A stretch of DNA of 64,000 bases, taken from Candidatus Eiseniibacteriota bacterium (lineage in GTDB: Bacteria > Eisenbacteria > RBG-16-71-46 > CAIMUX01). The position numbers and the translations under genes were made by a program. Below the pieces are notes generated by a model. That model made no database searches. It was not told the DNA's origin and saw nothing but the letters and a program-made list of their open reading frames with translations. Location of the stretch: assembly GCA_041390305.1 (NCBI GenBank), contig JAWKQE010000005.1, positions 144,380 to 208,379 of the forward strand. Reading direction: 5' to 3'. Positions within the stretch are counted from its first letter, which is position 1, and each line of letters starts with the position of its first letter. Shown in pieces: positions 20,660 through 45,113 of the stretch.

Positions 20660-20992
20660 GAGGTCCTCCATCGGTCAGGCTGGCTTGTGACGGGGAGCTG
20701 ACCGCCAGGTGGACGGTCCGCCAAACGCTGCGTCACGGAGTCTGCCAGCTCAAGCCTCTTTCTGCAATCCGCGGGGCATGCGGGAAACCCGCTATGCCGT
20801 GAGGGGCGGCGCCGCCCCCCGTTGTCGGTCCCGACACCAGCCGGTCCCCTCGCGTCGCCGTTTGTGGCAGATTCTTGGTATCTCGTCACCGGCCGGAACT
20901 GCCCTACGCTCCACCGGTTCCAAGATATCGGCGCCCGCGGGTCAGGAAGGTCCCCGCACCGCGGTCGTCCCAACCCAAGCGAGAGGCCTCTC

Positions 20993-22066
20993 TTGAGACG
21001 AAGCCCCCACGAGCGGGCATGGGGCCGGTGGACACCGGCACTGCTCCTCACGCTGCTCCTCCATCTGGGGGCGGCTTGGGGGTTCCTGCGTTTCGACCTC
21101 CTGGGTGCGGACGATCTCCCGGAAAAGCCGCCGGAGTTCGTGGAAGTCGTGTTCGAGCAGCCGGAGGAGCCGGCGCCGGATCGGGCCGAGGCCTTTACCG
21201 AACTCCCCGAGGACCGCGCGGACGAGCCCGCGGAGCAGCCGGACTTCCTCAGCAACGTCGACAGCCGGGCGCGGGACCTCACCCCCGGAGGAGAGGACCG
21301 TCTGGCCCGCCAGGACGGCCGGACCGAGTTCCCCCAGGTCGCGATGGAGACGGGGCAGCCCTCCCCACCTTCCGATCCAACACCGCCGGTGCCTCGAACC
21401 GAGGACATGGACCCGGTGGATCCGGATGAGTCGCGGGAAAGCGAAGCGGAAGAGGCCAGAGAGGACGAAGCCCGAGAGAAGGAGACGCTGGCGCAGGAGT
21501 CTCCTCCGCCTCTCGAAGAGGACGTCGTGCTCCGGTCACGCGAACCGGACCCGTGGGCGGCGTTCCGCCGCACGTCCGTTCAGGCCCCGAGTCCCAGGCC
21601 CGAGTCCCCGGCATCCGTCCCCCAGGCCGGCGGCCCGAGCGACCTCGCGCAGGACGCGATGTCGTCCCCCGACGCGAATGCCGAACTCCTCGGCGACATC
21701 TCGCTCAACACGCGCGAGTGGGAGTGGGCCCCCTGGCTCCAGGCGTTTCGGCGCGAACTGATGGAGTCGTGGACGGCCCCCCTCGGCTACCACCTCGGAC
21801 TGATCCACGGCTGGACCCTGCTCGAAGTCGTGGTCGCGCCGAGCGGCCAGGTACTCTCGAACCGCGTGATGGACGAGGAAGGCAACGTCGCCTTCCGCGA
21901 GGCGAGCCTCGCCGCGGTCGACCGGTCCGCCCCGTACCTGCCGCTCCCCGACGACTTCCCGGAAGAGACTTTGGTCATCACACTCCGTCTCGACTATCCG
22001 GAGTGGCAGAAAGCTCCTACACCACCGCCGCAGCCGACCTCACAGAGGCGAGGCCGCAGACGATGA
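20993..22066 (+). CDS. TonB-family energy transducer (N-terminal TM, Pro/Glu-rich spacer, TonB C-terminal domain); TTG start
   Basis: TM helix WTPALLLTLLLHLGAAWGFL, acidic/Pro-rich linker, C-terminal TonB-like fold. Immediately upstream of exbB-exbD. Confidence 0.6.
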   Translation: MRRSPHERAWGRWTPALLLTLLLHLGAAWGFLRFDLLGADDLPEKPPEFVEVVFEQPEEPAPDRAEAFTELPEDRADEPAEQPDFLSNVDSRARDLTPGGEDRLARQDGRTEFPQVAMETGQPSPPSDPTPPVPRTEDMDPVDPDESRESEAEEAREDEAREKETLAQESPPPLEEDVVLRSREPDPWAAFRRTSVQAPSPRPESPASVPQAGGPSDLAQDAMSSPDANAELLGDISLNTREWEWAPWLQAFRRELMESWTAPLGYHLGLIHGWTLLEVVVAPSGQVLSNRVMDEEGNVAFREASLAAVDRSAPYLPLPDDFPEETLVITLRLDYPEWQKAPTPPPQPTSQRRGRRR

Positions 22067-22096: not shown

Positions 22097-22831
22097 ATGC
22101 TGGAGTTCTTGGACAGAGCCGGACCTCTCATCTATCCGCTCCTGCTCTGTAGTCTCCTCGCTTCCACCATCGCCATCGAGCGGATCCTCGCGCTTCGCCG
22201 GGGCAAGGTGCTGCCGAGGGAGATCATCGAGATCGTGGAAGCGGTGCGCCCCCATCACGACCTATCCATGGCCATCGACGTCTGCCGCCGGAACCCGGGC
22301 GTCTTCGCGGACATCATCCGGATCGGCCTCGAACGCGCCAACGAACCGTGGGAGGTCGTCCGGGATGCCCTCCAGGACGCCGGCAAGCAGAAGACGACGG
22401 TGCTCGAACGTCACCTCGTCTGGCTCCAGACGATCGCACAGGCCGCACCCCTCCTCGGCCTTCTCGGAACCGTCCTCGGCATGATCAAGATGTTCGGCTC
22501 CATCTCCATCGCCGGACTCGGAGATCCTCAGGCCCTCTCCGAAGGGATCAGCGAGGCGATGCTGACGACAGCCGTCGGCCTCGCCATCGGCATTCCCACG
22601 CTGGTGGCGTACAACCTCCTCGCGTCGAAGGCCGAGGACATGATCGCCGAGATCGAAGCCTACGCGACGCAGCTTCTCACGACGTTCCGGCATGCGGAAC
22701 GGGCGAGGACGGCCGGGATCGGTGATGTGGCTGGTGGTGCGTCCAGAGGACGCACCGCCCCGGGCGCCGGCGCAGCAACAGCGAACCCCGTCGACGGTCG
22801 CCACACGTCCTTCGAAGGAGGAACGGCGTGA
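22097..22831 (+). CDS. exbB: ExbB/TolQ/MotA-family proton channel
   Basis: Three TM segments. Motif LLGLLGTVLGMIKMF...AMLTTAVGLAIGIP is typical of ExbB/TolQ. Good SD. Confidence 0.8.
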   Translation: MLEFLDRAGPLIYPLLLCSLLASTIAIERILALRRGKVLPREIIEIVEAVRPHHDLSMAIDVCRRNPGVFADIIRIGLERANEPWEVVRDALQDAGKQKTTVLERHLVWLQTIAQAAPLLGLLGTVLGMIKMFGSISIAGLGDPQALSEGISEAMLTTAVGLAIGIPTLVAYNLLASKAEDMIAEIEAYATQLLTTFRHAERARTAGIGDVAGGASRGRTAPGAGAATANPVDGRHTSFEGGTA

Positions 22832-23280
22832 GCACGCTCGGATTCCGGGAGAGTCGGAAGAACAAGGACGTCACGCTCAACGTGACGTCGCTCATCGACG
22901 TCCTCTTCCTCCTCATCATCTTCTTCATGCTGACGGGCACGTTCAAGCGGGTCGGAGAGCTGAAGCTCGAGCTGCCGAGTTCGTCGACGTCCGAACTGAC
23001 CAAGTCCACCGATCCCAAGAGCGATCTCGAACTCGTGGCGACGGTCGACGGCCGGATCGTGGTCGACGGCACCGTGGTCGCGCCGGAGGAGCTGGGCGCG
23101 AAACTCAGCGAGATCCGGGCCGCGGAGCCGGAACGGCGCGTCGTACTCAAGGCCGAAACGGACGTCGTACACGGACGGGTCGTGTCGCTCCTGGACGCAG
23201 TGAGGAAGGCAGGGTTCCCGGGCGTGTCGATCGGGACGGAGGTGCAGCCGTTCGCTCCGAATCCGCCTCCAACGAACTGA
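22828..23280 (+). CDS. exbD: ExbD/TolR biopolymer transport protein
   Basis: GTG start overlapping the exbB stop, preceded by GAAGGAGG. Motif NVTSLIDVLFLLIIFFM + periplasmic domain is typical of ExbD. Confidence 0.8.
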   Translation: MSTLGFRESRKNKDVTLNVTSLIDVLFLLIIFFMLTGTFKRVGELKLELPSSSTSELTKSTDPKSDLELVATVDGRIVVDGTVVAPEELGAKLSEIRAAEPERRVVLKAETDVVHGRVVSLLDAVRKAGFPGVSIGTEVQPFAPNPPPTN

Positions 23281-23298
23281 GGCTGTTCCCGACGCGTC

Positions 23299-25086
23299 TC
23301 AGTCAGCCTGGCGGCGCATCGATGGGTCCGGCTCGATCTCGAGTGCGGACTGGATCCACTCCCCGGCCGCGATCCTCGCTTCGATGAGGGGATGGCGGAC
23401 GAGGTAGATCATGGCCACGGTGTGACCATTCCCCAACGGCATCTCGACGACCGTCGTCCCGGGTGGGAACGCGGTCTGGTCCGCGTAGAGTTGGCCGTAC
23501 GGGTCGAGATCTCTCAGACGGTAGCCGTCCACCCTCTTCGCCGGAGAACCTTCCTCCGGATGCCCCAGGAGCAGGTGCGCGTTCCTCTTCCGCAGGTAGG
23601 AGACCGGCGCGATCGTCCGATGCCCCGCCCGGTCCGTATAGGGACGGGCCTCTCCCCCGATCCACGGGTCACACAGACCGAGCATGTCGATCGTGTAGAG
23701 CCGACTCTCGTACGGGATCGCTCCGGCCGGTGTGAGCGCGATCCTCACACCGTCCCCGACGCTGCTTCCGCCTTCGCTCCTGCCCTCGCTCTCGCCTTCG
23801 CTCTCGCGGCCGTTTCCGAGCTGTCGCCCGAGCTCTCGACCGATCCGTCGCCACTCCAAAGGAGAGGACGGATCGAGGTGCGACCGGAGCTCCCGCATCG
23901 ACTCCACCCGATCGAAGAACAGAGTCTGTCGGAAGAGCGGGTCGTGAACACCGCCCAGGACCAGAAGCAGGGCCAGCAACGCGACACCCGCACCTCGGGG
24001 GAGTCGGCGAATCGCCCAGGCTACGGCGGTCGCAACGAGCGGAGTGATCGGGACGAATAGACGCAGCTCCATGAAGTCGCCACCGATCCGGATGACGTAG
24101 GCGGTCCAGAGGACGACCGGCGCGACGAGGAGAAGGAGCCCCGCCCGGCCGAGGTCGCCCGAGAACTCACGTCGACGGAACCAGAGCACGGCGGCGACGA
24201 GGATCCAACCAAAGCTCACGAACCAGGCCGTCGCGTAGAGCCCGCCATGCTCGAGCCAGACGGAGACACCGCCGGGCACCTGAGACTTCACGTGGAACGT
24301 GTGGGGAAGCCAGGCGCCGTAGTAGGCGTAACGCCAGAGGGACGAGGCGATCAGCGCGACGCCAGGCAAGAGGAGGACGGAGGCGGCACGACCAAGGCTC
24401 AGCCTGCGCGTCTCATCCGAGGACGTCGCGCGCTCGGTGAGGAGAAGCCAACCACCCGGCGCGAGGAGCAGAGCACTGTCGAGCCTCGCGAGCAGAGTGA
24501 AGGTCGCGACGAGGGACCAGACGTACCTGGCGTTCGTACCCCTCGCGTTGTCGGCGTCGCTTTCTCGCTCCCGGGCCCAGATCCACGCGGCGAGACCGGT
24601 GGAGAGCGTGATTCCCAGCGTCTGCCAACCGGTCTCGAGTCCGCCCGTGGCGAACGCAGCGGACGTCGAGTTCACCGCGACGAGGACCATGGCAACGAGC
24701 GCCGCGCTCGGTCCGATCAATTCACGACCGAGCCGGAGAGTGGCAAGCAGGGTCAGGCCGACCGTGAGCATCCCGGTTCCGTAGACGAACGCGACGGGGT
24801 CGAGGTGGAGCGAATGGGGGATCGCGAGCCAGAGCGTCCAGAGGAGGTTCGTGAACCCCTCGACCCTCTCGCCCGGATTGAAGACGAGCCCGTGTCCTTC
24901 GGCGAGATTCCGTGCGTACCGAAAGCTGATGAATGCGTCGTCCATCACGAAACGGCGGTGCCAGGCGTGGAGGATCCCGAGACAGAGAACGGAGAGCGCG
25001 GCGGCGCGCCAGGTATCGACGCGATCCGTCGATCCCAATGCACGACGTTGGCTAGCCACCCAGGTGCACCACCCGACACGAAGCAT
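23299..25086 (-). CDS. GT-C-type integral membrane glycosyltransferase-like protein (ArnT/PMT-like, >=10 TM); start may be the internal ATG at about 24945
   Basis: N-terminal DDAFISFRYARNLAEGHGLVFNPGERVEGFTNLLW motif, then multiple TM helices and a C-terminal soluble domain. The start overlaps the end of the upstream UvrA-like gene, suggesting co-transcription. Confidence 0.5.
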   Translation of the reverse strand: MLRVGWCTWVASQRRALGSTDRVDTWRAAALSVLCLGILHAWHRRFVMDDAFISFRYARNLAEGHGLVFNPGERVEGFTNLLWTLWLAIPHSLHLDPVAFVYGTGMLTVGLTLLATLRLGRELIGPSAALVAMVLVAVNSTSAAFATGGLETGWQTLGITLSTGLAAWIWARERESDADNARGTNARYVWSLVATFTLLARLDSALLLAPGGWLLLTERATSSDETRRLSLGRAASVLLLPGVALIASSLWRYAYYGAWLPHTFHVKSQVPGGVSVWLEHGGLYATAWFVSFGWILVAAVLWFRRREFSGDLGRAGLLLLVAPVVLWTAYVIRIGGDFMELRLFVPITPLVATAVAWAIRRLPRGAGVALLALLLVLGGVHDPLFRQTLFFDRVESMRELRSHLDPSSPLEWRRIGRELGRQLGNGRESEGESEGRSEGGSSVGDGVRIALTPAGAIPYESRLYTIDMLGLCDPWIGGEARPYTDRAGHRTIAPVSYLRKRNAHLLLGHPEEGSPAKRVDGYRLRDLDPYGQLYADQTAFPPGTTVVEMPLGNGHTVAMIYLVRHPLIEARIAAGEWIQSALEIEPDPSMRRQAD

Positions 25087-28000
25087 CGATCAGGGCCCGT
25101 CGATGATCCGCGATCACGACGAGATCTCCGCGGGTACAGAGCTCGCCGAGCGCCGAGACCAGCCGCTCGAGGTCGGCGGGGTGTTGCCCGGCACCTGGCT
25201 CGTCGAAGAGGTGGAGTGCAGGCGAGCCGCGATCCATGAGGCTCTGCGCCAAACCGAGGCGCTGCACTTCCCCACCGGACAGGGTCCGGACTTCCCGACC
25301 GAGCGCGAGATGACCGAGTCCCGCGCGAACGAGCGCGTCGAGTCCCGCTCTCAACGACTTCGCGCTGTCCGGAAGTCGCGAAGCGAGAGACGTCGCCGGC
25401 TGGTCCAGGAACTCCGACGGATCGAGGCCGTCCCATCGCACCGCGAGCGGTTCCGGCCGGTACCGTCGCCCCTCACAGACCGGGCAGGGCAGATCCAGGT
25501 CGGCCATGAAATCCATCGCCACGCGCTCGTGACCCGTCCCTCCGCAGGCCGGGCACCGACCCTTCGGGCTGTGGAAGCTGAAGGCCTGGGCCGGCAGATC
25601 GCTTGCTCCGGCTGCCGCGTGATAGAAGCGTTGAAACGGAGTCATGAGGCCGAGGGCGGTGAGAACGGAACCGGCGCGCAGGGTTGTCGCCCGTCCGTGG
25701 ATGGAGCGGAAGTGAGTGAGTGCGTCGACGGGTTCGATCGCATCGCATCCGGCTGGGGTGCCGGCTCGGAACGACGCCTCGATCACGTCGAAGAGCAAAG
25801 TGCTCTTCCCCGAACCGGATGGTCCGACGATCGAGACGAGTCCGGAGCGCGGCAGGTCGAGGTCGAGCCCGCGAATCGGCCCGGCATCGATGCCTCGGAA
25901 GCGGACCCTGGGAGTGTCAGTCGCCCGGGCATCTGTTTGGGCGTCGGCACGGGCGTCCACTTGTGCATCTGTTTGGGCATCCGTTTGGGCGTCTGCTCGG
26001 GCGTCCACTTGGATATCTGCCTGGCCGTCTGCTCGCGGGCTGCGGGTCGGCTTCGTCGGCTCGTCGGATAACACCTCCTCCGGCGCGCCCTCCGCTACGA
26101 TCCGGCCCCCGTCCGGCCCGGCGCCGGGGCCGAGTTCGATCAGGTGGTCGGCCGCGCGCAGTACATCTCGGTCGTGTTCCACCACGACGACGGTGTTGCC
26201 TTCGTCACACAATCCGCGAAGCGCTGCGATGAGCACTCGCGTCTCCCGAGGCTGGAGCCCTGCGCTGGGCTCGTCGAGGACGATCGTGGCACCGGAGAGT
26301 TCCGCGCGGAGCACCGCGGCCAGGCGGACGCGCTGACGCTCCCCGGACGAGAGCGCATCCGTGTATCGGCCGAGAGGAAGGTGCCCGAGACCGAGCCTTT
26401 CGAGGTCGGCGAGTCTCGCCCGGATCTCGGGGACGAGAGATCGGATCGCAGCATGCGCACTCGCGCCCACGGCGTCATCACCGAGTCGGACCAGTTCGCC
26501 GAGGAACGCGAGGAGATCCGTCATTGGAAGCAGCAGCAGCTCGGGAAGTGTGCGCGCCCTCACGGACGTGGGGTCGCTCGTACCTCCGAGGGTCACGGCG
26601 CGCGCATCGACACCGAGCCCTGAGCCCGTGCACTTGGGGCACGGCGACGGAACGAGCGGCGCGCTCCATGCCGCAGCGTTCTTGTGACCCGCCCGCTTCC
26701 GCGCCTCCGACTCGGTGAGCGCGAGGAACCCGGACCACTTCGACTGGAACTGGTGCGCGCCGTCTCCCTCCCGTTTGTCCGCGCCGAACTCCCAGGAAAC
26801 TTGGAAGACACGCTCCCCAGCTCCCTCCAGTGCCACTCGACGCACCCACGCCGGTAGGTCACGCCACGGTGCGGACAGGTCGACGCCTGCCTCGGATACC
26901 CGCAAGGCGGGACCTCCGCCCTCTTCTCGCGGCCCGTCTCCCGGCTCCGCCGCCAGCGCAAACAACGCGGCACGCAGGGTCGCAACGTATCGTCCTTCCG
27001 GCTCGGAGAAGAACTCGCCCGGCTTCGTTCCGGCCAGCGCTCCTCGGAGGAGGGAGCGCTCGGGAGACGTGACGAGTCGGTCTGGATCACAGAGTTCGAG
27101 GACGCCGCGTCCGTGACATGCGGGACACGCGCCCAGGGCGCGGTCGGAACTGAAGTGTTCGGCCGTGAGCCCACAAGGAGTGCCGTCTCGTTTCCCTGCG
27201 CGCGCGAAGAGGAGACGAAGTGTGGGACCGACTCCGCTCTGGGTCGCCACGGTCGATCGTGCGCCTCCACCGTGCTCACCCTGACGGAGGCTGAGCGTCG
27301 GCCCGAGACCGCGCGCGGCCTCGAGACGTGGACGCGGCATCCGCCGCACCTGCCGCCGCACCTCGAACGGGAGGCTCTCCGCGAATCGCTGCCACGCTTC
27401 CGCCGCGAGCGTCCCGAATGCGAGGGAACTCTTGCCACTTCCCGACACGCCACAGATGCCGGTCAGCTTTCCGCGCGGGATTCGGACGTCGATCCCCTGG
27501 AGGTTGTTCGTCGAGACTCCGGCGAGATGGATCTCGGATGGAGCCGAGGGGAGCGGGCGGGCCGAAGCGATCGTGCGCGCGTCCGCCCCCACCCTGCCCC
27601 AGTCCACCTCCGGGTCCCGCCGAATCGCACCGTCCTCGAGTTCGACGAGAACGTCTGCCGCCGCCCAGAGGTGACGATGGTGCGAGATCGCGACGACGGT
27701 GTGCCCGGCCTCGATGAGCCGGTCGAGCGCCCTGATGAGCAACGCGAGATCGGTCGGATGGAGTCCCCGGTCCGGCTCGTCGAGGAGCAGGAGTGTGGGA
27801 GCCGCATCGGTCGTTCCGAGCAGCGTCGCAAGCTTGACGCGCTGCGACTCCCCGCGACTGAGCTGGCCTGAGGGCTGGCCGAGCGAGACGTACCCGAGCC
27901 CGAGGTCGTCCATGGCGCGGCAGAGGTTCGCGACCCTGCGATCGTCCGCGAAGAACGACACCGCGTCGCGCACCGTGAGCGCGAGCACCTCGGCGATCGT

Positions 28001-29887
28001 CTTCCCCCCGAGACGCGGGACCAGTACAGCGGGGGCGTAGCGTCCTCCGCCACACTCCGGGCAGAGGATCTCCGCGTCCTCGACGAGATGGAGGCCGACG
28101 CGGATCACGCCCAGCCCCTCGCACGCCGGGCAGCGTCCTTCCTTGTTGTTGAACGAGAAGTGTCCTGGGCCGAACCCGAGCCGCTTCGCGTCCGGACTGT
28201 CCGCGAAGCTCTTACGCACGAGGTCGAAGAGACCGGACCAGGTCGCGGGCGTGCTCCGTGAGGTGCGTCCGATCGGACGCGCATCGAGGGCCCGCACGGT
28301 TGTGGAGAGTTCGCCCAGATCGAGCGATGCGAAGGGACCGCCCGGCGCGCCGGTCAGTGCGGGCAGGAGCGTCCCGAAGACGAGTGAGCTCTTTCCCGCA
28401 CCGGACGGACCGATGACGACGTTCAGCGCACCGAGTTCGACCGTGAAGTCGTCGCCCTCGAGGTTGTGGAGGGTCGCGCCACGCAGCGTCAACTGTCCGC
28501 CGCTTGGTCGGCGGATCGCCTTGGGGGTCGGCGGCGGGCCGAGCGGATCCAGGGACGGCTCGCCGGCAGGGAGAACGCGCCCCCCTTCCGGCCCCGCACC
28601 TGGACCCAAGCGAACGATCCGATCCGCGTGCCGCACCATGTCGGGATCGTGCTCGACGACGATGAGCGTGTTCCCGAGCGCTCTGAGTTCGCTCAGCACC
28701 GCGCGCATCCCCTCCTGCGCGCTCGGGTGGAGCCCGAGTGTCGGTTCATCGAACGCGAAGAGCGTGCCGGAGAGTCCAGCGGTGAGTTGCGCGACGAGAC
28801 CGAGTCGCTGCGCTTCTCCCCCGGAGAGGGTCGTACTCTCACGGCCCAGGGAGAGGTGACCGAGACCGAGTCGGATCATCCGGTCGAGGCGCGCGTCGAT
28901 CTCGGGACGGAGTGCCTGCAGGACTTCGTGCGGCGGCAACTGATCCAGCGATGGCATGAGCCCCTGGACGGGAAGCGCGAGCAGCTCGGGCAGACGGATC
29001 GTCCCGATCATGGCCTCGCGACCGGGACGCGAGAGGCGCGAGCCCGCACACACCGTGCATGGAACGGAGCGCACGAAGCGGAGCACGTTCGGATTCCGGT
29101 TCCGCTTCAGCGTCTCCTCGATCACGGGGACGAGACCGCGGTAGTAGCCCTCCTCGCGGGGCCGGGCCGTGATCCCCTCCCACTTCATCCGCGACTCGAT
29201 CGGATGCTTCCCGAACGGCACCTGGAGGGCAGTCGTCCCGAAGAAGATGACATTCCGCTGCTCGTCCGTCAGCTCCCGCCACGGAGTGTGGACATCGAAC
29301 CCATGAGCCTCGCAGATCGTCTCCATCACATCGAGCGTGACCTGACTGTAGACGGTGTATCCGTTCTTCAGCGTCGGGACGAGGGCGCCATCTCTCAGGC
29401 TCTTACCCGCGTCCGCGACGAGGAGTTCGGGATCGACCCGATCCTCGACTCCGATCCCGCCGCAGGACTCACATGCACCGACAGGATGATTGAAACTGAA
29501 GTGACTCCGCGTGAGCGACGCACCTTCCGGATCCACCGCGCAACGTGCGTACGCGAGGCGAAGGAGGTCGAGCACACCGGTCATGGTCCCGACCGTCGAC
29601 CGGAGGTTGGCGGTGAACGCGCGCTCCCCGAGCGCGATCGCGGCCGGCAGACCCGTGAGCTCCCGCACGGAGGCACGGCCCAGCTTTCCGAAGTACTGCC
29701 GCGCCCGGGGAGACAGTGTTCCGAGGAACCGGCACTGGCCTTCACGGACCAGGGTTCCGAAGACGAGTGACGTCTTCCCCGAGCCAGACGGGCCGACGAC
29801 GGCGATCCACTCGCCGTGGGGAAGATTGAGGTCGATGCCCTGGAGGTTGTGCTCGGTGGCGCCTCGGAGTCTCAGGATGCCGGACAT
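25052..29887 (-). CDS. Tandemly duplicated (single-chain double) UvrA-like ABC ATPase, 1611 aa with four nucleotide-binding modules
   Basis: Four Walker A sites (GPSGSGKTSLVFGTL, GPSGAGKSSLVFGTL, GVSGSGKSSLAFGTL, GPSGSGKSTLLFDVI). Four ABC signature / Walker B pairs. UvrA-type Zn-finger Cys pairs. Acidic DAQT/DARA low-complexity linker. Confidence 0.8.
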   Translation of the reverse strand: MSGILRLRGATEHNLQGIDLNLPHGEWIAVVGPSGSGKTSLVFGTLVREGQCRFLGTLSPRARQYFGKLGRASVRELTGLPAAIALGERAFTANLRSTVGTMTGVLDLLRLAYARCAVDPEGASLTRSHFSFNHPVGACESCGGIGVEDRVDPELLVADAGKSLRDGALVPTLKNGYTVYSQVTLDVMETICEAHGFDVHTPWRELTDEQRNVIFFGTTALQVPFGKHPIESRMKWEGITARPREEGYYRGLVPVIEETLKRNRNPNVLRFVRSVPCTVCAGSRLSRPGREAMIGTIRLPELLALPVQGLMPSLDQLPPHEVLQALRPEIDARLDRMIRLGLGHLSLGRESTTLSGGEAQRLGLVAQLTAGLSGTLFAFDEPTLGLHPSAQEGMRAVLSELRALGNTLIVVEHDPDMVRHADRIVRLGPGAGPEGGRVLPAGEPSLDPLGPPPTPKAIRRPSGGQLTLRGATLHNLEGDDFTVELGALNVVIGPSGAGKSSLVFGTLLPALTGAPGGPFASLDLGELSTTVRALDARPIGRTSRSTPATWSGLFDLVRKSFADSPDAKRLGFGPGHFSFNNKEGRCPACEGLGVIRVGLHLVEDAEILCPECGGGRYAPAVLVPRLGGKTIAEVLALTVRDAVSFFADDRRVANLCRAMDDLGLGYVSLGQPSGQLSRGESQRVKLATLLGTTDAAPTLLLLDEPDRGLHPTDLALLIRALDRLIEAGHTVVAISHHRHLWAAADVLVELEDGAIRRDPEVDWGRVGADARTIASARPLPSAPSEIHLAGVSTNNLQGIDVRIPRGKLTGICGVSGSGKSSLAFGTLAAEAWQRFAESLPFEVRRQVRRMPRPRLEAARGLGPTLSLRQGEHGGGARSTVATQSGVGPTLRLLFARAGKRDGTPCGLTAEHFSSDRALGACPACHGRGVLELCDPDRLVTSPERSLLRGALAGTKPGEFFSEPEGRYVATLRAALFALAAEPGDGPREEGGGPALRVSEAGVDLSAPWRDLPAWVRRVALEGAGERVFQVSWEFGADKREGDGAHQFQSKWSGFLALTESEARKRAGHKNAAAWSAPLVPSPCPKCTGSGLGVDARAVTLGGTSDPTSVRARTLPELLLLPMTDLLAFLGELVRLGDDAVGASAHAAIRSLVPEIRARLADLERLGLGHLPLGRYTDALSSGERQRVRLAAVLRAELSGATIVLDEPSAGLQPRETRVLIAALRGLCDEGNTVVVVEHDRDVLRAADHLIELGPGAGPDGGRIVAEGAPEEVLSDEPTKPTRSPRADGQADIQVDARADAQTDAQTDAQVDARADAQTDARATDTPRVRFRGIDAGPIRGLDLDLPRSGLVSIVGPSGSGKSTLLFDVIEASFRAGTPAGCDAIEPVDALTHFRSIHGRATTLRAGSVLTALGLMTPFQRFYHAAAGASDLPAQAFSFHSPKGRCPACGGTGHERVAMDFMADLDLPCPVCEGRRYRPEPLAVRWDGLDPSEFLDQPATSLASRLPDSAKSLRAGLDALVRAGLGHLALGREVRTLSGGEVQRLGLAQSLMDRGSPALHLFDEPGAGQHPADLERLVSALGELCTRGDLVVIADHRRALIDASCRVVHLGG
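25931..26026. repeat. Degenerate 12-nt tandem repeat (about x8, ...TTGGGCGTC) within the double-UvrA CDS, encoding a (DAQT/DARA)n linker
   Basis: Seen directly in the sequence. Confidence 0.8.
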
Positions 29888-30014
29888 GCGGGGACTCTAG
29901 CTGCTCGGGTGACCGCGATCCTCCCCAGATTCGCCTTGGGATGAGGCCCGAGTCCGACCGACGTGGCATACTCACTACCATCCACTCAGGGGCCACAAAG
30001 AAGAGGAATCGACC

Positions 30015-30383
30015 ATGGAACTCGGAGCATTCTCGGTCAGCCTGGCCGTCAAGGACTTGGAAGCGTCGCGTACCTTCTACGCAGCATTCGGATTCGAGGT
30101 GGTGGGCGGGGACGCCGCGCAGAACTGGCTCATCCTCCGAAACGGAAACCACACGATCGGTCTGTTCCAGGGCATGTTCGAGCAGAACATCCTCACCTTC
30201 AATCCGGGCTGGAACGCACAGGCGGAGCCGCTGGACTCCTTCACGGACGTCCGGGAGATCGCGAGGGACCTCGAGGCGAAGGGGATCACTCTCGTGCAGA
30301 AGAACCTCGACGGAACGGGGCCCGGCAGCCTCGTCGTCCTCGACCCGGATGGGAACCCGGTCCTGATCGACCAGCACGTGTAG
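30015..30383 (+). CDS. VOC/glyoxalase-family protein
   Basis: Strong SD (AAGAGGAA). 122 aa with a glyoxalase/bleomycin-resistance-like beta-alpha-beta-beta-beta pattern ([17 protein letters not shown]...GFEVV). Confidence 0.7.
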
Positions 30384-30512: not shown

Positions 30513-31145
30513 ATGAACCTGAAACCGGCCTTCGCATCCGTTCACCGTTCGTTACCCACACTCACCGCCGCCATCGCCGTGCCCATCGCCCTTCTCGGAT
30601 TGGTCCAATCCTCGGCGATCGCCGACTGGAGCATCCCTGATCCAGCCCTCTGCTCGGTCTCACCGTGCGACGAGCTCGACGGCCTGGTTCTCACTCCAGA
30701 CAGCCCTCATCCGCAACCTGCGAGCCGGGTCGAAGTGGTGGTCAGGAACGACGGCAACTCGCCGATTCCGCATGCGTCTGTGGCAGTGGAGATAGTGAGC
30801 CCCAATCTCTTGTGCCCAACCGCGATACTCACGGAGCATGCCGACCACGACGGCCATGTATCCCTGGTCTTGGCGGGGGGTGGTTGCATCTCGGACGTCA
30901 GTCTGGCCACGGTCATCAAAGCGAACGGCATCACGATCCGCCACTACCGGAACGTGAAGAGCCCGGACTTCGACGGCAGTGGCGGAGATCTCAAGGTCGA
31001 CATCGCCGATCTGGTCGCGTTCTCGGGCGAGTTTCTCGGCACGTCGGCTCCGGGTTGTCACGACTATGACAACTCCGGCACGACGGATCTCGGAGACCTC
31101 ATCATCTTCGCGCCGACGTTCACGGACGCCAGCCACTGCCCGTAG
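30513..31145 (+). CDS. Small secreted protein with two C-terminal dockerin/EF-hand-like Ca-binding repeats, tandem paralog 1 of 3
   Basis: AGGAGG SD. Signal peptide MNLKPAFASVHRSLPTLTAAIAVPIALLGL. Motifs DFDGSGGDLKVDIADLVAF and DYDNSGTTDLGDLIIF. Ends in HCP. Confidence 0.75.
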   Translation: MNLKPAFASVHRSLPTLTAAIAVPIALLGLVQSSAIADWSIPDPALCSVSPCDELDGLVLTPDSPHPQPASRVEVVVRNDGNSPIPHASVAVEIVSPNLLCPTAILTEHADHDGHVSLVLAGGGCISDVSLATVIKANGITIRHYRNVKSPDFDGSGGDLKVDIADLVAFSGEFLGTSAPGCHDYDNSGTTDLGDLIIFAPTFTDASHCP

Positions 31146-31319
31146 CCGAGGACGGCAATTCTCGTGCGGGATCGGTTGGAACTTGTCTGCCGAAGAGGCT
31201 GAGCGGAACACTCCGGGTCGAAAGTGCTTTCCGCGCGTCCCGTCTGATATGCTCTCCATTGGTAGGTCCCCCTCTCGTGGAAGCCACCCAGCGTCCTGAT
31301 CTCCAGCCAGGAGGCACTG

Positions 31320-32000: not shown

Positions 32001-32153
32001 GCGGAGCGGCTTGCCGTTCCGCAGCCCCTGATCGCGATTCGTGACGGGGGTCAACACGGCTTGGCTTGTTCCGTGTGTGGGCATTCGCCATCCGGGCGGT
32101 GCCCGCTCCCCAAACCCCTTGGGCCCGGGTGCAGCCGGGCTCTTGGAGGAAGA

Positions 32154-41972: not shown

Positions 41973-44900
41973 TTGAAGAAGAGCGCTCCGGCCTGCCGGA
42001 TCGAAGGCGCGCGCACGCACAATCTCAAGGGCATCAGCTGCCAGATCCCGTTCGGGAAGCTCACCGCGGTTACAGGAGTTTCGGGTTCCGGGAAGTCGAC
42101 CCTCGCGTTCGACGTTCTCTACGCCGAAGGCCAGCGGCGTTTCGTCGACTGCCTTTCGACCTACGCTCGTCAATTCCTCCAGCGGCTCGATCGTCCGGAT
42201 GTCGACCGGATCGGAGAGATCCAGCCGCCGATCGCCCTCAAACAGCAGGTGTCGATCCGGAACGCCCGCTCGACCGTCGGGTCGATCACCGAACTGTCGG
42301 ACCTCCTCCAACTGCTCTTCGCCCACGGAGGAACGCCCCATTGTCCGGCGGACGGGACCGAACTCGTGCTCCACACGGCCGAGAGCGCCGCGGAGGCGCT
42401 GCGATCCCTCGGGGCGGACCGGAAGTTCGTACTCACGGCGCAGGTTCGACTCCCCGCCGGAACGGGCGGGCTCGCTGCCGCAGTCGCGCTCGGATATCAG
42501 GAACAGGGCTACACGCGCATCTATCGAAAGAGCGAAGTCCAGGAGTGGACCGAACCCCATCGAGGGGGAGACTACGACGTCGTGATCGATCGGTTCACGA
42601 CTCGTGCGCTCCCCCGCGCCCGCGCACTGGAAGCGATCGAGGCGGCGTGGAAGCTCGCCGGTGGACGGGCCGACGTCTGGGAACTCGGCGAGGCAGAGCC
42701 GCTCACCTCGCTCACCGAAGGGCTCTCGTGTCCGACCTGCCACGAACGGACCCGTCCTCTGCGTCCGCAGCTCTTCTCCCCCAACTCACCACTCGGCGCG
42801 TGTCCCGAGTGCAACGGGTTCGGGCGGATCGTCGTCCTCGACCGCGACAAGGTCGTGCCGAATGGAAGCCTGAGCCTCGACGAGGGCGCAGTGGTTCCGT
42901 TCGAGACCAAGACGGGACGGCTCTTCCGGAGAGCGATGCTCGCGGAGGCCAAGGCCCGTGGCATTCCGACGAACGTGCCCTTCCGCGACCTCTCCCCGGC
43001 CGAGAAGGACTGGGTTTTCGAGGGGGCGCCGGTCGAACGACGGAAGCGGCCCGCCGCCGGGAAGACAGGCGCAAAGACAGGCGGAAAGGCTGGCGGAAAG
43101 GCCGGCGGAAAGGCCGGCGCACAGGCAGGCGCACGGGCAGGCGCGGACGTGCCTACCCAGGCAGCCATCTCCGCCACAGTTCGGTCCGCGGCGCGGAGGT
43201 ATCGCGGCGTCGAAGGCCTCTTCAAGAAGCTCGAGCGCAAACGGTACCGTCCTCACGTCCGGATCTTCCTCGCGCGGTTCCGGGGATACGAGACGTGCCC
43301 CAAGTGCCGCGGGTCCCGCCTCCATCCGGTCGCGCTCTCGGTGACGATCGGAGGGCTCGACCTCGCACGGATCGAGCAGATGCCGGTCCAGGATCTGCTC
43401 ACGTTTCTGGAACAGCTCGATCTCGGCTCGGCGCGGACCGCACGCGTTCGACTCGTCCTGGACGAAGCGAAGGAGCGGCTCGAGTACCTCACGGAAGTCG
43501 GCCTGGGGTACCTCACGCTCGCGCGCACGGCCCGCACGCTCTCGGGCGGCGAAACCCAGCGGATCCGGCTCGCCTCCGGCCTCGGGACGTCTCTGACCGA
43601 GACGCTCTACGTCCTCGACGAACCAACGGTCGGCCTCCATGCCGCCGACACCGCGCGCATGCTCGAGGTCCTGCGCCAACTCTGCGCGAGCGGGAACACG
43701 GCGGTCGTCGTCGAGCACGACCCAGGGATCGTCCTCCACGCGGATCATCTCATCGTGCTCGGCCCCACGGGCGGAGAAGGCGGCGGTGAGGTCGTCTATG
43801 AAGGAACGACCGACGGATTCGTAATGGAGCATCCGGAGTTCTTCCGCGTGAGTGACGCACTCGGCCGGCTCGGGAGCGAGGAGCACCGGGTGGCAGGCGC
43901 CGACGCGCGCAGCGGACCCGCGTCTGCGATCCGGCTCCGCGACGTCCGGCAGCACAATCTCGAGATCGAAGCACTCGATCTCCCGACCGATCGCCTCGTC
44001 GTGATCACCGGTGTGTCGGGTTCCGGGAAGTCCACGCTCATCGAGGACGTGCTCTATCGGAACGCGCTCCGCCAGTTCGGAAAGCCGGTCGAGGACGTCG
44101 GGCGGGTCGGTGAGCTGACCGGTCTCGACTCGTTCACCGAAGTGCTCCTCGTCTCCCAGAATCCGCTCGGCAGGTCGAGCCGCTCGACACTCGTCAGCTA
44201 CACCGGCCTCCTCGCGCCGGTACGGAAGCGTCTCGCGTCCACCCCACGCGCGAAGGAACTCGGCCTCCGTCCGGGAGACTTCTCCTTCAACGTCCCGGGC
44301 GGACGGTGCGAAACGTGCAAGGGGATGGGCTCGGTCCTTCTCGAAATGCACTTCATGGCCGACGTAGAGGTCACCTGCGAGGTCTGCAAGGGCAGGCGCT
44401 TCCGCGAGGACGTCCTCGAAGTGACGCACGGAGGACGCTCGATCCTCCAGTATCTGGACCTCACCGTGAGCGAGGCCCTGGAGGTGTTCGAAGGCGACCG
44501 CGACGCGGTGCGGCGACTCACGCCTCTCATCGACGTCGGACTCGGCTACCTGCGCCTGGGGCAGAGCACGTCCACTCTCTCCGGCGGAGAAGCCCAGCGT
44601 CTCAAGCTCGCGAGCCTGCTCGCGGAGGGCCAACCGACTGAGAAGCGTCCGGCGAAGAGCACGAAGGCGGCACGCAAGAAGTCACGCTCCGCCAAGAGCC
44701 CGGCGACATCCGCCGGCCGTCGGGTCTTCCTCTTCGATGAACCGACTTCCGGGCTCCACCCACAGGACATCCAGAAGCTGCTCGATGCACTGCGAGGACT
44801 GCTCGCGCTCGGACACGCCGTCGTCGTGGTCGAGCATCAACTCGACTTCATCGCATCCTGTGACTGGATCGTGGACCTGGGACCCGGCGGAGGCGCGGAA

Positions 44901-45113
44901 GGTGGCCGCCTGCTCTACTCGGGCGCGGTTCCGAGAATCCTCGACGTTCCGGGGTCCATCACGGGAAGACTGCTCCGCGAGCAGATCTGTGGACCGGCCT
45001 GCATTGGCGAGCAGGTCGCCGAACGAAGCGACGATGCCCGGCGCCAGAAACGGACGCGCGCCGCTTCCAGGAACAGGAAGAAGGGGTCGACGGAGACCAC
45101 GGCGCCCGCGTGA
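41973..45113 (+). CDS. UvrA-like ABC ATPase paralog (1046 aa) with a Gly/Lys-rich insertion
   Basis: TTG start. Two Walker A sites (GVSGSGKSTLAFDVLYAEGQRRF; GVSGSGKSTLIEDVLY). Two signature motifs (LSGGETQRIRLAS; LSGGEAQRLKLAS). Zn-finger Cys pairs. Insertions GKTGAKTGGKAGGKAGGKAG and KRPAKSTKAARKKSRSAKS. Confidence 0.8.
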   Translation: MKKSAPACRIEGARTHNLKGISCQIPFGKLTAVTGVSGSGKSTLAFDVLYAEGQRRFVDCLSTYARQFLQRLDRPDVDRIGEIQPPIALKQQVSIRNARSTVGSITELSDLLQLLFAHGGTPHCPADGTELVLHTAESAAEALRSLGADRKFVLTAQVRLPAGTGGLAAAVALGYQEQGYTRIYRKSEVQEWTEPHRGGDYDVVIDRFTTRALPRARALEAIEAAWKLAGGRADVWELGEAEPLTSLTEGLSCPTCHERTRPLRPQLFSPNSPLGACPECNGFGRIVVLDRDKVVPNGSLSLDEGAVVPFETKTGRLFRRAMLAEAKARGIPTNVPFRDLSPAEKDWVFEGAPVERRKRPAAGKTGAKTGGKAGGKAGGKAGAQAGARAGADVPTQAAISATVRSAARRYRGVEGLFKKLERKRYRPHVRIFLARFRGYETCPKCRGSRLHPVALSVTIGGLDLARIEQMPVQDLLTFLEQLDLGSARTARVRLVLDEAKERLEYLTEVGLGYLTLARTARTLSGGETQRIRLASGLGTSLTETLYVLDEPTVGLHAADTARMLEVLRQLCASGNTAVVVEHDPGIVLHADHLIVLGPTGGEGGGEVVYEGTTDGFVMEHPEFFRVSDALGRLGSEEHRVAGADARSGPASAIRLRDVRQHNLEIEALDLPTDRLVVITGVSGSGKSTLIEDVLYRNALRQFGKPVEDVGRVGELTGLDSFTEVLLVSQNPLGRSSRSTLVSYTGLLAPVRKRLASTPRAKELGLRPGDFSFNVPGGRCETCKGMGSVLLEMHFMADVEVTCEVCKGRRFREDVLEVTHGGRSILQYLDLTVSEALEVFEGDRDAVRRLTPLIDVGLGYLRLGQSTSTLSGGEAQRLKLASLLAEGQPTEKRPAKSTKAARKKSRSAKSPATSAGRRVFLFDEPTSGLHPQDIQKLLDALRGLLALGHAVVVVEHQLDFIASCDWIVDLGPGGGAEGGRLLYSGAVPRILDVPGSITGRLLREQICGPACIGEQVAERSDDARRQKRTRAASRNRKKGSTETTAPA

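What the first reader, a model, noticed from the sequence alone, without database searches (positions are those of the whole stretch)
25052..29887. Single-chain 'double UvrA' with four ABC ATPase modules, co-transcribed with a GT-C membrane glycosyltransferase-like gene
The 1611-aa product contains two complete UvrA-like units in tandem: four Walker A motifs, four signature / Walker B pairs, and Zn-finger Cys pairs. Canonical UvrA (~940 aa) has two modules and acts as a dimer. This protein would be an intramolecular 'dimer'. Both units look class-II-like: the insertion in ATP-binding domain I is short, so the UvrB-binding domain may be absent. An acidic (DAQT/DARA)n linker encoded by 12-nt tandem repeats (25931-26026) separates the last two modules. 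Its stop overlaps the start of a polytopic GT-C glycosyltransferase-like gene (23299-25086). That pairing is unusual for DNA repair. It hints at a resistance or export-coupled function, as with DrrC-like UvrA paralogs.
Basis: partly seen in the sequence, partly recalled or inferred. Interest (0 to 1): 0.65.

Follow-up and report, generated by a model that had tools for sequence, protein, structure and literature searches.

The report
Fused double UvrA2-type DNA-scanning ATPase
This gene really does encode two UvrB-blind (class II) UvrA units fused into one 1611-residue chain. It belongs to a widespread but unstudied protein family, it sits 12 kb from an ordinary uvrA, and its link to the neighbouring glycosyltransferase gene is an accident of this one genome.

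Summary
ORF 25052-29887(-) is intact and encodes 1611 aa made of two complete UvrA units. It has four Walker A/B, signature and H-loop sets and four Zn modules. Both units keep the insertion (DNA-binding) domain. Both lack the UvrB-binding domain and Zn module 1. A 12-nt repeat (25927-26033) encodes an acidic linker. The stop codon overlaps an AftB-like GT-C gene.

It is not an assembly chimera: 36 independent assemblies carry the same uninterrupted 1500-1690 aa ORF, and both units are under purifying selection (dN/dS about 0.1).

The GT-C gene is absent from the same position in a fully syntenic sister Eisenbacteria genome. Its closest homologues are not next to any UvrA gene. No neighbour family is shared by more than 5 of 36 loci. 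The acidic linker is unique to this genome.

A canonical class I uvrA lies in the same window (41973-45113), so the fused protein is a paralogue and not the excision-repair sensor.

The most likely function is a single-chain pseudo-dimeric class II UvrA that binds DNA and hydrolyses ATP without UvrB. The fusion is old, and it has let the two halves diverge. One subclade has lost one composite ATP site. Interest is moderate to low, because this is an uncharacterised variant of a known kind.

The parts
25052..29887 (-). Fused double class II UvrA gene (1611 aa; NCBI MEZ4648245.1, named 'AAA family ATPase', Candidatus Eisenbacteria MAG)
   Evidence: ORF. Scores 1024.7 bits on TIGR00630 uvra as a whole, but each unit alone falls below the 729.8-bit cutoff. 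Source identity.
27638..29887 (-). Unit 1 (aa 1-750): ABC modules 1 and 2, insertion domain, Zn modules 2 and 3. No UvrB-binding domain.
   Evidence: Aligns to E. coli UvrA 4-114 plus 268-904. Aligns in a single stretch to D. radiodurans UvrA2, PDB 2vf7. PF17755 present, PF17760 absent. 85% aa identity to L025, dN/dS 0.095.
29048..29473 (-). Unit 1 insertion (DNA-binding) domain, flanked by Zn module 2 cysteines (aa 139-280)
   Evidence: CxxC at aa 139 and 277. PF17755 scores 55-73 bits. This is the most conserved segment against L025: 91.8% identity, dN/dS 0.05.
27536..27637 (-). Inter-unit linker (aa 751-784)
   Evidence: The aa 738-800 region that holds this linker is 59 aa (58-63) in most of the 36 family members. 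The outliers are L052 (74), L059 (78), L036 (83) and L025 (99).
25052..27535 (-). Unit 2 (aa 785-1611): ABC modules 3 and 4, enlarged insertion domain, Zn modules 2 and 3. No UvrB-binding domain.
   Evidence: Aligns to E. coli UvrA 3-117 plus 268-905. AlphaFold2 model has pLDDT 88.5 and pTM 0.84. Foldseek top hits are UvrA 2r6f (TM 0.77), UvrA2 2vf7/2vf8 and Ecm16 7sh1. 75% identity to L025, dN/dS 0.14.
26630..27127 (-). Unit 2 insertion domain, flanked by Zn module 2 cysteines (aa 921-1086). It is longer and more divergent than in unit 1.
   Evidence: CxxC at aa 921 and 1083. Partial PF17755 match of 29.3 bits, above the cutoff.
25927..26033 (-). 12-nt tandem repeat encoding the acidic (DAQT/DARA)n linker between modules 3 and 4 (aa ~1286-1321). 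Specific to this genome.
   Evidence: TRF period 12, 8.9 copies. Absent from all 35 homologues aligned, including L025. Predicted disordered, pLDDT 33-53.
23299..25086 (-). AftB-like GT-C membrane glycosyltransferase-like gene. It overlaps the dUvrA stop codon. It is a lineage-specific neighbour and not part of the system.
   Evidence: PDB 9dlf AftB E = 2e-11. Homologues are named arabinofuranosyltransferase and carry PF13231/PF03901. Absent at this spot in syntenic L025.
41973..45113 (+). Canonical class I uvrA (1046 aa) of the same genome, with a UvrB-binding domain
   Evidence: Aligns contiguously to E. coli UvrA 6-937 at 38.5% identity. TIGR00630 842 bits, above the 729.8 cutoff. PF17760 UvrA_inter at 23.7 bits, above the 23.3 cutoff.
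30015..30383 (+). Small VOC/glyoxalase-superfamily gene, divergent from dUvrA with a 127-nt gap. Conserved only in the syntenic sister genome.
   Evidence: Pfam Glyoxalase 28 bits. No specific NCBIfam family and only weak PDB hits. Adjacency seen only in L025.

Best explanation
The gene encodes a covalently fused tandem of two class II (UvrA2-type) UvrA units.

**Shown**
- Each unit has the full UvrA core: two ABC ATPase modules, an insertion/DNA-binding domain, and Zn modules 2 and 3.
- Neither unit has the UvrB-binding domain or Zn module 1.
- All four ATP sites look catalytically competent in this protein.
- The architecture is an old, single fusion kept in dozens of genomes under purifying selection.
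- The genome also encodes a normal class I UvrA.
- The gene has no conserved gene partner.

**Inferred**
- The two units fold back on each other into the head-to-head four-module saddle that ordinary UvrA and UvrA2 build as a homodimer. The chain would then be an obligate 'heterodimer in one piece'.
- It would clamp duplex DNA in the central groove and use ATP binding and hydrolysis to probe and release DNA.
- It cannot hand DNA to UvrB. It therefore works outside canonical excision repair, as the class II proteins DrUvrA2, DrrC and Ecm16 do.
- The most likely role is to sense, and dislodge or tolerate, DNA-bound or DNA-distorting agents.
- Fusion fixes a 1:1 pairing and lets the halves specialise. 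Unit 1 is the conserved half, including its insertion domain. Unit 2 evolves faster, and in one subclade it has lost its module-4 ATP site.
- The downstream GT-C gene is a recent local insertion that may ride on the same transcript here, but it is functionally unrelated.
For: - **Architecture and missing UvrB-binding domains:**, with an E. coli positive control. Unit 1 aligns in one stretch to DrUvrA2. The unit 2 model matches UvrA, UvrA2 and Ecm16 folds.
- **Each unit alone scores below the NER-UvrA equivalog cutoff:** 593 and 442 bits against 729.8. The window's other UvrA passes at 842 bits.
- **Canonical uvrA in the same window:**
- **Not a chimera:** 36 uninterrupted ORFs from independent assemblies. 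More than 120 protein clusters at 47-68% identity; all but two span at least 94% of the query. About 50 species-level genomes carry it.
- **Purifying selection on both units:** dN/dS 0.095 and 0.137.
- **Single old fusion:** N-units and C-units form two separate clades with matching internal topology.
- **Motif conservation:** all four sites are conserved in 32 of 36 members. In L027, L028, L033 and L039, Walker A-4, Walker B-4, H-loop-4 and signature-3 degenerate together. That is the pattern expected if modules 3 and 4 form composite ATP sites as in UvrA.
- **Linker length:** the region holding the inter-unit linker is 59 aa (58-63) in most members, with four longer exceptions.
- **Class II precedent:** Ecm16 needs ATPase activity, binds drug-loaded DNA, and works without UvrA, UvrB, UvrC or UvrD (PMC9328131). 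Its insertion domain sets DNA binding and specificity (PMC10192343).
Against: - The intramolecular pseudo-dimer could not be modelled.
- No substrate or phenotype is known for any member of this family.
- The gene is not in a biosynthetic or resistance cluster, so the drug-displacement analogy rests on homology alone.
- Whether the other genomes that carry the fused gene also carry a class I uvrA was not testable here.
- dS between the two Eisenbacteria genes is near saturation (1.0-1.4), so the dN/dS values are approximate.
- The tree is neighbour-joining without bootstrap support.
Confidence: 0.68

Rival explanations
1. The fused UvrA and the GT-C glycosyltransferase-like gene form a functional operon.
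For: Both genes are on the same strand. The stop and start overlap by 8-35 nt. No terminator-like site lies between them. Co-transcription in this genome is therefore plausible.
Against: - The GT-C gene is absent from the same position in the otherwise collinear sister genome L025.
- No GT-C homologue flanks any of the other 35 fused-UvrA loci. The only hit is a 52-aa match in L025's relative set, in L014.
- The closest GT-C homologues (52% and 48% identity) have unrelated neighbours.
- No neighbour family is conserved across the loci.
Confidence: 0.05
2. The fused protein is a nucleotide-excision-repair UvrA. Either it is the main sensor, or it loads UvrB through a surface other than the classical UvrB-binding domain, as long Chlamydia-type UvrAs presumably act in repair.
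For: - The whole protein exceeds the TIGR00630 score cutoff, and some sources name homologues 'excinuclease ABC subunit A'.
- Other double UvrAs (L053, L060, L061, L076) keep UvrB-binding regions.
Against: - Neither unit has the UvrB-binding domain or Zn module 1.
- Each unit alone fails the equivalog cutoff.
- A complete class I uvrA is present 12 kb away.
- It scores 677 bits against a 3054-bit cutoff on the long-UvrA model NF001885.
- No uvrB lies next to any fused-UvrA locus.
Confidence: 0.1
3. The two units do not pair within one chain. Instead, chains pair with each other (unit 1 with unit 1', or unit 1 with unit 2'), giving eight-module assemblies or filaments.
For: Nothing here excludes it, because the full-length fold could not be predicted. 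UvrA and UvrA2 dimerise readily (PMC5128194).
Against: - The region holding the inter-unit linker is short and of near-constant length in most members.
- The two units have co-evolved as separate clades.
- One site has degenerated asymmetrically.
- All three fit a fixed 1:1 pairing of unit 1 with unit 2, which is achieved most simply within one chain.
Confidence: 0.15
4. The ORF is an assembly chimera or a decaying pseudogene made from two adjacent uvrA-like genes.
For: None found.
Against: - 36 independent assemblies carry the same uninterrupted ORF, including the complete genome of the cultured Saltatorellus ferox Poly30.
- dN/dS is about 0.1 in both units.
- All catalytic motifs are intact.
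Confidence: 0.01
5. It is a component of an anti-phage defence system.
For: It hits the PADLOC models mad3 (318 bits) and mad8 (128 bits).
Against: - E. coli UvrA itself scores higher on the same models (342 and 124 bits), and so does the window's canonical UvrA. The hit is therefore generic UvrA similarity.
- The neighbours give no PADLOC hits.
- There is no conserved neighbourhood.
Confidence: 0.01

Closest known systems
Class II (IIa) UvrA paralogues: D. radiodurans UvrA2 (PDB 2vf7/2vf8), Ecm16 (PDB 7sh1), DrrC
   Same: - Each unit has the class II layout: two ABC modules, an insertion domain with Zn module 2, and Zn module 3. There is no UvrB-binding domain and no Zn module 1.
- Unit 1 aligns end to end with DrUvrA2.
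- The unit 2 model superposes on UvrA2 and Ecm16.
- It coexists with a class I UvrA in the genome.
   Different: - The known class II proteins are ~750-840 aa chains that form homodimers. Here two units only 33% identical to each other are fused into one 1611-aa chain.
- The gene is not in a biosynthetic gene cluster.
- Unit 2 has an enlarged, divergent insertion domain.
- The family consistently has LSRGE as signature 2 and SHH as H-loop 2.
Canonical class I UvrA (E. coli UvrA; TIGR00630/NF001503; PDB 2r6f, 3pih, 3zqj)
   Same: It shares the fold, the ATPase motifs, the insertion domain and the C-terminal Zn finger. The four-module saddle is expected to be equivalent to the UvrA2 dimer.
   Different: - It has no UvrB-binding domain (PF17760) and no Zn module 1.
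- Each unit scores below the equivalog cutoff.
- The ~35 C-terminal residues of E. coli UvrA are absent from both units.
Other double UvrAs: 'type B' (L053, L060, L061, L076) and the Chlamydia-type long UvrA model NF001885/PRK00635 (1809 positions)
   Same: They are also single chains with two UvrA units and four ABC modules.
   Different: - Type B is a separate fusion that arose within the class I clade.
- Its unit 1 is a complete class I UvrA.
- Its unit 2 keeps the UvrB-binding region but lacks the insertion domain.
- The window protein scores 677 bits against a 3054-bit cutoff on NF001885. The type B proteins also miss that cutoff, at ~1030 bits.
Mycobacterial AftB (PDB 9dlf), GT-C arabinofuranosyltransferase. 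This comparison is for the neighbouring gene only.
   Same: The N-terminal ~350 aa align (E = 2e-11). The DD-containing motif is conserved and the N-terminal half is polytopic.
   Different: - It scores 57.6 bits against a 1050-bit cutoff on the AftB model.
- It belongs to a broad environmental family of unknown acceptor.
- It is not linked to UvrA genes elsewhere.

Membership tests
UvrA superfamily (ABC ATPase, UVR type) | Two tandem ABC modules per unit, each with Walker A, signature, Walker B and H-loop | tested here: met
   All four modules carry the motifs.
UvrA superfamily (ABC ATPase, UVR type) | Insertion (DNA-binding) domain within module I, flanked by Zn module 2, and a Zn finger (module 3) in module II | tested here: met
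   PF17755 is found in both units. CxxC pairs lie at aa 139/277, 586/609, 921/1083 and 1445/1468.
UvrA superfamily (ABC ATPase, UVR type) | UvrA three-dimensional fold | tested here: met
   The unit 2 model has pLDDT 88.5. Foldseek gives E = 1e-57 to 2r6f and TM 0.67-0.77 to UvrA and UvrA2. Unit 1 was tested by sequence only.
Class I (NER) UvrA | UvrB-binding domain (PF17760) and Zn module 1 inserted in module I | tested here: not met
   E. coli residues ~115-267 have no counterpart in either unit. PF17760 gives no hit at E <= 1, while the window's canonical UvrA (23.7 bits) and E. coli UvrA (135 bits) are both hit.
Class I (NER) UvrA | Score at or above the TIGR00630 equivalog cutoff (729.8 bits) for one UvrA unit | tested here: not met
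   Unit 1 scores 593 bits and unit 2 scores 442 bits. Only the sum over both units, 1024.7 bits, exceeds the cutoff.
Class II(a) UvrA (UvrA2/DrrC/Ecm16) | UvrA core without the UvrB-binding domain and Zn module 1 | tested here: met
   The class definition is as quoted in PMC9328131 and PMC10192343.
Class II(a) UvrA (UvrA2/DrrC/Ecm16) | A single ~750-840 aa unit that acts as a homodimer | tested here: not met
   Two non-identical units (33% identity) sit in one 1611-aa chain.
Class II(a) UvrA (UvrA2/DrrC/Ecm16) | NER-independent, ATP-dependent action on DNA | not testable with these tools
   This needs biochemistry or genetics. It is inferred only from the missing UvrB-binding domains and from Ecm16 (PMC9328131).
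Self-resistance UvrA-like proteins of DNA-intercalator gene clusters (DrrC, Ecm16, MtrX) | Location inside a biosynthetic gene cluster for a DNA-binding metabolite | tested here: not met
   The neighbours are acetyl-CoA synthetase, TonB/ExbB/ExbD, GT-C, VOC, BLUF and GTP cyclohydrolase I. None is a biosynthetic enzyme.
Chlamydia-type long UvrA (NCBIfam NF001885 / PRK00635) | Score at or above the 3054-bit cutoff | tested here: not met
   677 bits.
Functional operon dUvrA + GT-C | Adjacency conserved across related genomes | tested here: not met
   The GT-C gene is absent in syntenic L025 and absent from the other loci. GT-C homologues lie elsewhere.
GT-C glycosyltransferase (neighbour gene) | Polytopic membrane protein with an N-terminal acidic DD motif, homologous to a known GT-C enzyme | tested here: met
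   AftB 9dlf E = 2e-11. D49 and D50 are invariant. Hydrophobic segments are present. Enzyme activity and acceptor were not tested.

The most novel reading that the evidence does not exclude
The fused class II+II UvrA family could be a distinct, UvrB-independent DNA-surveillance machine in which covalent fusion has fixed an asymmetric heterodimer. It occurs in Planctomycetota, Nannocystales/Myxococcota, Eisenbacteria and some Bacteroidota.

- In this reading, unit 1 does the DNA or ligand recognition through its highly conserved insertion domain.
- Unit 2 is a diverged partner whose module-4 ATP site is regulatory or dispensable. That site is lost in the Saltatorellus subclade.
- Its substrate would differ from both UV lesions and the intercalator antibiotics handled by DrrC and Ecm16.
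- It would also be a natural single-chain system for assigning separate roles to the four ATP sites of a UvrA dimer. That cannot be done cleanly in a homodimer.
Probability: 0.3. Interest if true: 0.5.

Novelty: new variant of a known kind. Interest (0 to 1): 0.3.

Why it matters
- **A natural tool for a standing question.** UvrA-type sensors work as symmetric homodimers with four ATP sites, and the separate roles of those sites are still debated. A single chain in which the four sites are genetically distinct allows one-site-at-a-time mutagenesis. In some lineages one site has already been lost naturally.
- **A correction to annotation.** The family is present in dozens of environmental genomes and at least one cultured planctomycete. 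It is auto-annotated either as 'excinuclease ABC subunit A' or as 'AAA family ATPase'. Neither name is right for a protein that cannot bind UvrB. A dedicated family model would fix this.
- **A caution for this locus.** An overlapping stop/start pair with an unusual neighbour is not evidence of function unless the adjacency recurs in other genomes.

Tried and rejected
- **Assembly chimera.** Rejected.
- **GT-C coupling.** Rejected by synteny with L025 and by the contexts of the GT-C homologues.
- **Any conserved neighbour.** ORFs within 6 kb in 36 loci were clustered all against all. No family occurs in more than 5 loci.
- **VOC/'bleomycin-resistance-like' divergent neighbour as a resistance hint.**
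  - It has no specific family assignment. PDB hits have E >= 0.015 and there is no NCBIfam hit.
  - The adjacency is seen only in the syntenic sister genome. It is not used as evidence.
- **Defence-system reading from PADLOC mad3/mad8 hits.** Rejected by the E. coli UvrA control.
- **Shared operator or SOS box upstream of dUvrA and canonical uvrA.** No shared 9-mer or longer and no palindrome was found. The sigma-70 scan found no promoter.
- **uvrB in the window or beside other fused-UvrA loci.** None found.
- **Class I uvrA within 10 kb of other fused loci.** None found.
- **Literature.**
  - Six full-text searches found no paper in the held library that describes a tandem class II UvrA.
  - Timmins 2009 and Marszalkowska 2013 are not held.
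  - My unverified recollection is that older reviews of UvrA classes (Goosen & Moolenaar 2008) may mention duplicated forms. That could not be checked.
- **Exact contig look-up for the window protein.** It returned nothing.
- **Rfam and tRNA scans of the window.** Both were empty.
- **Full-length structure prediction.** Not possible, because the protein is 1611 aa and the limit is 1200 aa. Only unit 2 was modelled.
Full report
**1. The observation**

The minus-strand ORF 25052-29887 is open and encodes 1611 aa. It contains four Walker A motifs (aa 32, 493, 813, 1355), four signature motifs (aa 354, 676, 1179, 1536) and four Walker B DEP motifs. It also contains eight CxxC pairs that make four zinc modules.

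A 12-nt tandem repeat of 8.9 copies spans 25927-26033. It encodes the acidic (DAQT/DARA)n stretch at aa ~1286-1321, between modules 3 and 4.

The stop codon (25052-25054) lies inside the start of the next minus-strand ORF, 23299-25086. The overlap is 35 nt from ATG 25086, or 8 nt from GTG 25059. No terminator-like site lies between the two genes.

**2. Domain map**

- Against E. coli UvrA, unit 1 aligns as aa 5-115 to Ec 4-114, then aa 130-750 to Ec 268-904.
- Unit 2 aligns as aa 785-899 to Ec 3-117, then aa 912-1610 to Ec 268-905.
- In both units, the ~150 residues that form the UvrB-binding domain and Zn module 1 are replaced by 12-14 residues.
- A focused Pfam scan of the junction regions finds the insertion/DNA-binding domain PF17755 in both units, at 55 and 29 bits, both above the cutoff. 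It finds no UvrA_inter (PF17760) in either. The same scan does find PF17760 in the window's other UvrA (23.7 bits, cutoff 23.3) and in E. coli UvrA (135 bits).
- Unit 1 aligns in one uninterrupted stretch with D. radiodurans UvrA2 (2vf7) and with Ecm16 (7sh1).
- An AlphaFold2 model of unit 2 was built on 35 homologues and reaches pLDDT 88.5 and pTM 0.84. The acidic repeat is its only long low-confidence segment.
- Its best structural matches are UvrA 2r6f (E = 1e-57, TM 0.77), UvrA2 2vf7/2vf8 and Ecm16.
- Each unit alone scores below NCBI's UvrA equivalog cutoff, at 593 and 442 bits against 729.8.
- The two units are 33% identical to each other.

**3. Not a chimera, and not rare**

- The identical protein is NCBI MEZ4648245.1, 'MAG: AAA family ATPase [Candidatus Eisenbacteria bacterium]', on a 251,689-bp contig.
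- The 120 best protein clusters are 47-68% identical, and all but two of them (P0078 and P0108) cover at least 94% of the query. Most are 1490-1710 aa long; the exceptions are the partial P0078 (1228 aa) and P0108 (1870 aa).
- A scan of one genome per GTDB species returned about 50 loci of this kind. They come from Planctomycetota, Nannocystales/Myxococcota, Eisenbacteria and a few Bacteroidota. They include the complete genome of the cultured Saltatorellus ferox Poly30. Some MAG taxon labels in that list (Paceibacteria, Paracoccaceae, Cognaticolwellia) are probably binning errors.
- In 36 loci with enough sequence, the gene is a single uninterrupted 1500-1690 aa ORF.
- Against the sister Eisenbacteria MAG (L025), the protein is 79% identical. 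dN/dS is 0.095 for unit 1 and 0.137 for unit 2. The unit 1 insertion domain is the most conserved part, at 92% identity and dN/dS 0.05. dS is close to saturation, so these ratios are approximate.

**4. History of the fusion**

In a neighbour-joining tree of separated units, all N-units of the main family form one clade and all C-units form another. The two clades have matching internal branching, and the C-units have longer branches. This indicates one old fusion followed by co-evolution of the two halves. The tree has no bootstrap support.

A second, unrelated kind of double UvrA turned up in L053, L060, L061 and L076 (1738-1956 aa). Its unit 1 is a complete class I UvrA. Its unit 2 keeps the UvrB-binding region but lacks the insertion domain. 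Both of its units sit inside the class I clade.

The curated long-UvrA model NF001885 (Chlamydia type) is matched poorly by the window protein, at 677 bits against a 3054-bit cutoff. The type B proteins also miss that cutoff, but they match it across the unit junction.

**5. Asymmetry**

- In this protein all four ATP sites look intact.
- Across the family, signature 2 is almost always LSRGE and H-loop 2 is SHH.
- In four related members (L027 Saltatorellus, L028, L033, L039), Walker A-4, Walker B-4, H-loop-4 and signature-3 are all degenerate together.
- ABC ATP sites are composite, built from the Walker A/B of one module and the signature of its partner. This joint loss is therefore what is expected if modules 3 and 4 pair as in UvrA. 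It shows that one of the four sites is dispensable in that lineage.
- A homodimer cannot lose one site in only one protomer. A fused chain can.

**6. Linkers**

The region that holds the inter-unit linker (aa 738-800 here) is 59 aa, or 58-63 aa, in most members. The exceptions are L052 (74 aa), L059 (78 aa), L036 (83 aa) and L025 (99 aa).

The acidic DAQT repeat is found only in this genome. The module 3-4 linker region is 84 aa here, against 53-67 aa in most others and as little as 32 aa in the Saltatorellus subclade. L025 lacks the repeat.

L025 instead has an A/S/V-rich expansion in the inter-unit linker. These are lineage-specific repeat expansions in flexible linkers and not family features.

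**7. Surroundings**

| Coordinates | Strand | Gene |
|---|---|---|
| 18716-20671 | - | acetyl-CoA synthetase |
| 20822-22066 | + | TonB-like |
| 22097-22831 | + | ExbB |
| 22828-23280 | + | ExbD |
| 23299-25086 | - | GT-C-like |
| 25052-29887 | - | fused UvrA |
| 30015-30383 | + | small VOC/glyoxalase-family gene |
| 30513-32778 | + | three paralogous ORFs |
| 33259-33690 | - | BLUF |
| 33708-34484 | - | GTP cyclohydrolase I |

Sources. There are no exporters and no biosynthetic genes.

The GT-C-like gene is a genuine AftB-like membrane protein. It hits PDB 9dlf at E = 2e-11. It has an invariant DD motif. Its homologues are named arabinofuranosyltransferase.

L025 is collinear with the window over more than 20 kb on both sides. 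At this junction, however, the window has 1.83 kb (25092..23258) where L025 has 105 bp. The GT-C gene is therefore an insertion or deletion difference between two close relatives.

- Its nearest homologues (52% and 48% identity) sit in unrelated contexts.
- The closest fused-UvrA homologue outside Eisenbacteria (68% identity) has different neighbours.
- Clustering all ORFs within 6 kb of the gene in 36 loci gives no family present in more than 5 loci. Those five loci are close relatives of each other.
- The fused UvrA is a stand-alone gene.

**8. The requested check: is there a canonical uvrA?**

Yes, and it lies in the same window. ORF 41973-45113(+) encodes 1046 aa that align contiguously with E. 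coli UvrA 6-937 at 38.5% identity. The alignment includes Zn module 1 and the UvrB-binding region. The protein passes the TIGR00630 cutoff at 842 bits and carries PF17760.

No uvrB is present in the window or beside any fused-UvrA locus. The 12-kb proximity of the two UvrA genes is not seen elsewhere.

**9. What it most likely does**

- **Shown:** the architecture, the missing UvrB-binding domains, intact ATP sites, purifying selection, coexistence with a class I UvrA, and no conserved gene partner.
- **From established knowledge:**
  - UvrA and UvrA2 act as head-to-head dimers whose four modules form a DNA-binding saddle (PMC5128194).
  - Class II proteins lack the UvrB-binding domain.
  - Where tested, in Ecm16, they need ATPase activity, prefer drug-loaded DNA and work without UvrA, UvrB, UvrC or UvrD (PMC9328131).
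- **Inferred:** the fused chain forms that saddle intramolecularly. It scans and clamps DNA in an ATP-dependent cycle and acts outside UvrB-dependent repair. The substrate is unknown. The pseudo-dimer could not be tested here because of the 1200-aa modelling limit.

**10. Comparison and novelty**

The protein works like a class II UvrA but fails the 'single unit, homodimer' feature of that class. It fails class I membership on the UvrB-binding domain. It is not the Chlamydia-type long UvrA.

No paper in the held library describes a tandem class II UvrA. Two classification papers that might do so are not held. Databases hold many members under generic names.

It is therefore an uncharacterised architectural variant of a known kind, and this locus is an ordinary member of that variant family. 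The locus-specific oddities, the GT-C neighbour and the acidic linker, are incidental.

**11. Verdict**

- Interest is about 0.3. The family deserves a biochemical look as a natural single-chain UvrA, but nothing at this locus points to a new system.

Noticed in passing
window 41973-45113 (+): The canonical class I uvrA of the same genome lies 12 kb from the fused paralogue. It carries K/A/G-rich low-complexity inserts at aa ~365-400 (in the insertion domain) and aa ~885-915 (before the second Walker B).
   Followed up: partly
L053:10031-15526, L060:9098-14314, L061:9527-15397, L076:9028-14400: There is a second, independent kind of double UvrA (1738-1956 aa). Unit 1 is a complete class I UvrA. 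Unit 2 keeps the UvrB-binding region but lacks the insertion domain. It passes the ordinary UvrA cutoffs but not the NF001885 cutoff.
   Followed up: partly
L027:10025-14569 (Saltatorellus ferox Poly30, NZ_CP036434.1), L028, L033, L039: A subclade of the fused family has lost Walker A, Walker B and the H-loop of module 4 together with the signature of module 3. That is one composite ATP site out of four.
   Followed up: partly
L025:9869-14935, inter-unit linker: The sister Eisenbacteria orthologue lacks the DAQT repeat but has an A/S/V-rich repeat expansion in the inter-unit linker (99 aa against 59 aa). The GT-C-like ORF of the window has its own ESEGESEGRSEG insert (window ~23740-23830). These genomes seem prone to short-repeat expansion in coding linkers.
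   Followed up: partly
PADLOC model PDLC04135 (mad3) against L002 (E. coli uvrA): The MADS defence model mad3 is UvrA-like. E. coli UvrA scores 342 bits on it, so any UvrA family protein will hit it. This is a false-positive risk for defence-system annotation.
   Followed up: yes
window 33259-33690 (-) and 33708-34484 (-): A stand-alone BLUF blue-light sensor protein sits directly downstream of GTP cyclohydrolase I. The pair is conserved in L025 at 96% and 88% identity.
   Followed up: no
window 30513-31145, 31320-32000, 32041-32778 (+): Three tandem paralogous ORFs cross-hit one another's counterparts in L025. Only the last has a weak Big_1 match. Their function is unknown.
   Followed up: no
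window 29888-29915 and L025 ~9975-10003: In an otherwise poorly conserved intergenic region, the sequence TAGAGTC(C)CCCGCATG is conserved up to the dUvrA start codon. It may be a -10-like hexamer about 7 nt before the ATG, which would suggest a leaderless or near-leaderless mRNA.
   Followed up: no
window 23299-25086 (-): The GT-C-like protein has no identical or near-identical entry in the 5.8-billion-sequence collection (best hit 52%). The fused UvrA of the same contig is present there. The gene may not have been called in the public record.
   Followed up: no
window 13821-15086 (-), 35434-37608 (+), 38826-40628 (-), 61801-62973 (-): Several otherwise unrelated proteins end in a FlgD_ig-type Ig-like domain. 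This is possibly a shared C-terminal sorting or secretion tag in this phylum.
   Followed up: no
window 12117-13706 (+) and 6675-7313 (+): There is a vanadium-chloroperoxidase-like protein (DUF6851 plus VCPO_2nd) and a second VOC/glyoxalase-family protein in the window.
   Followed up: no
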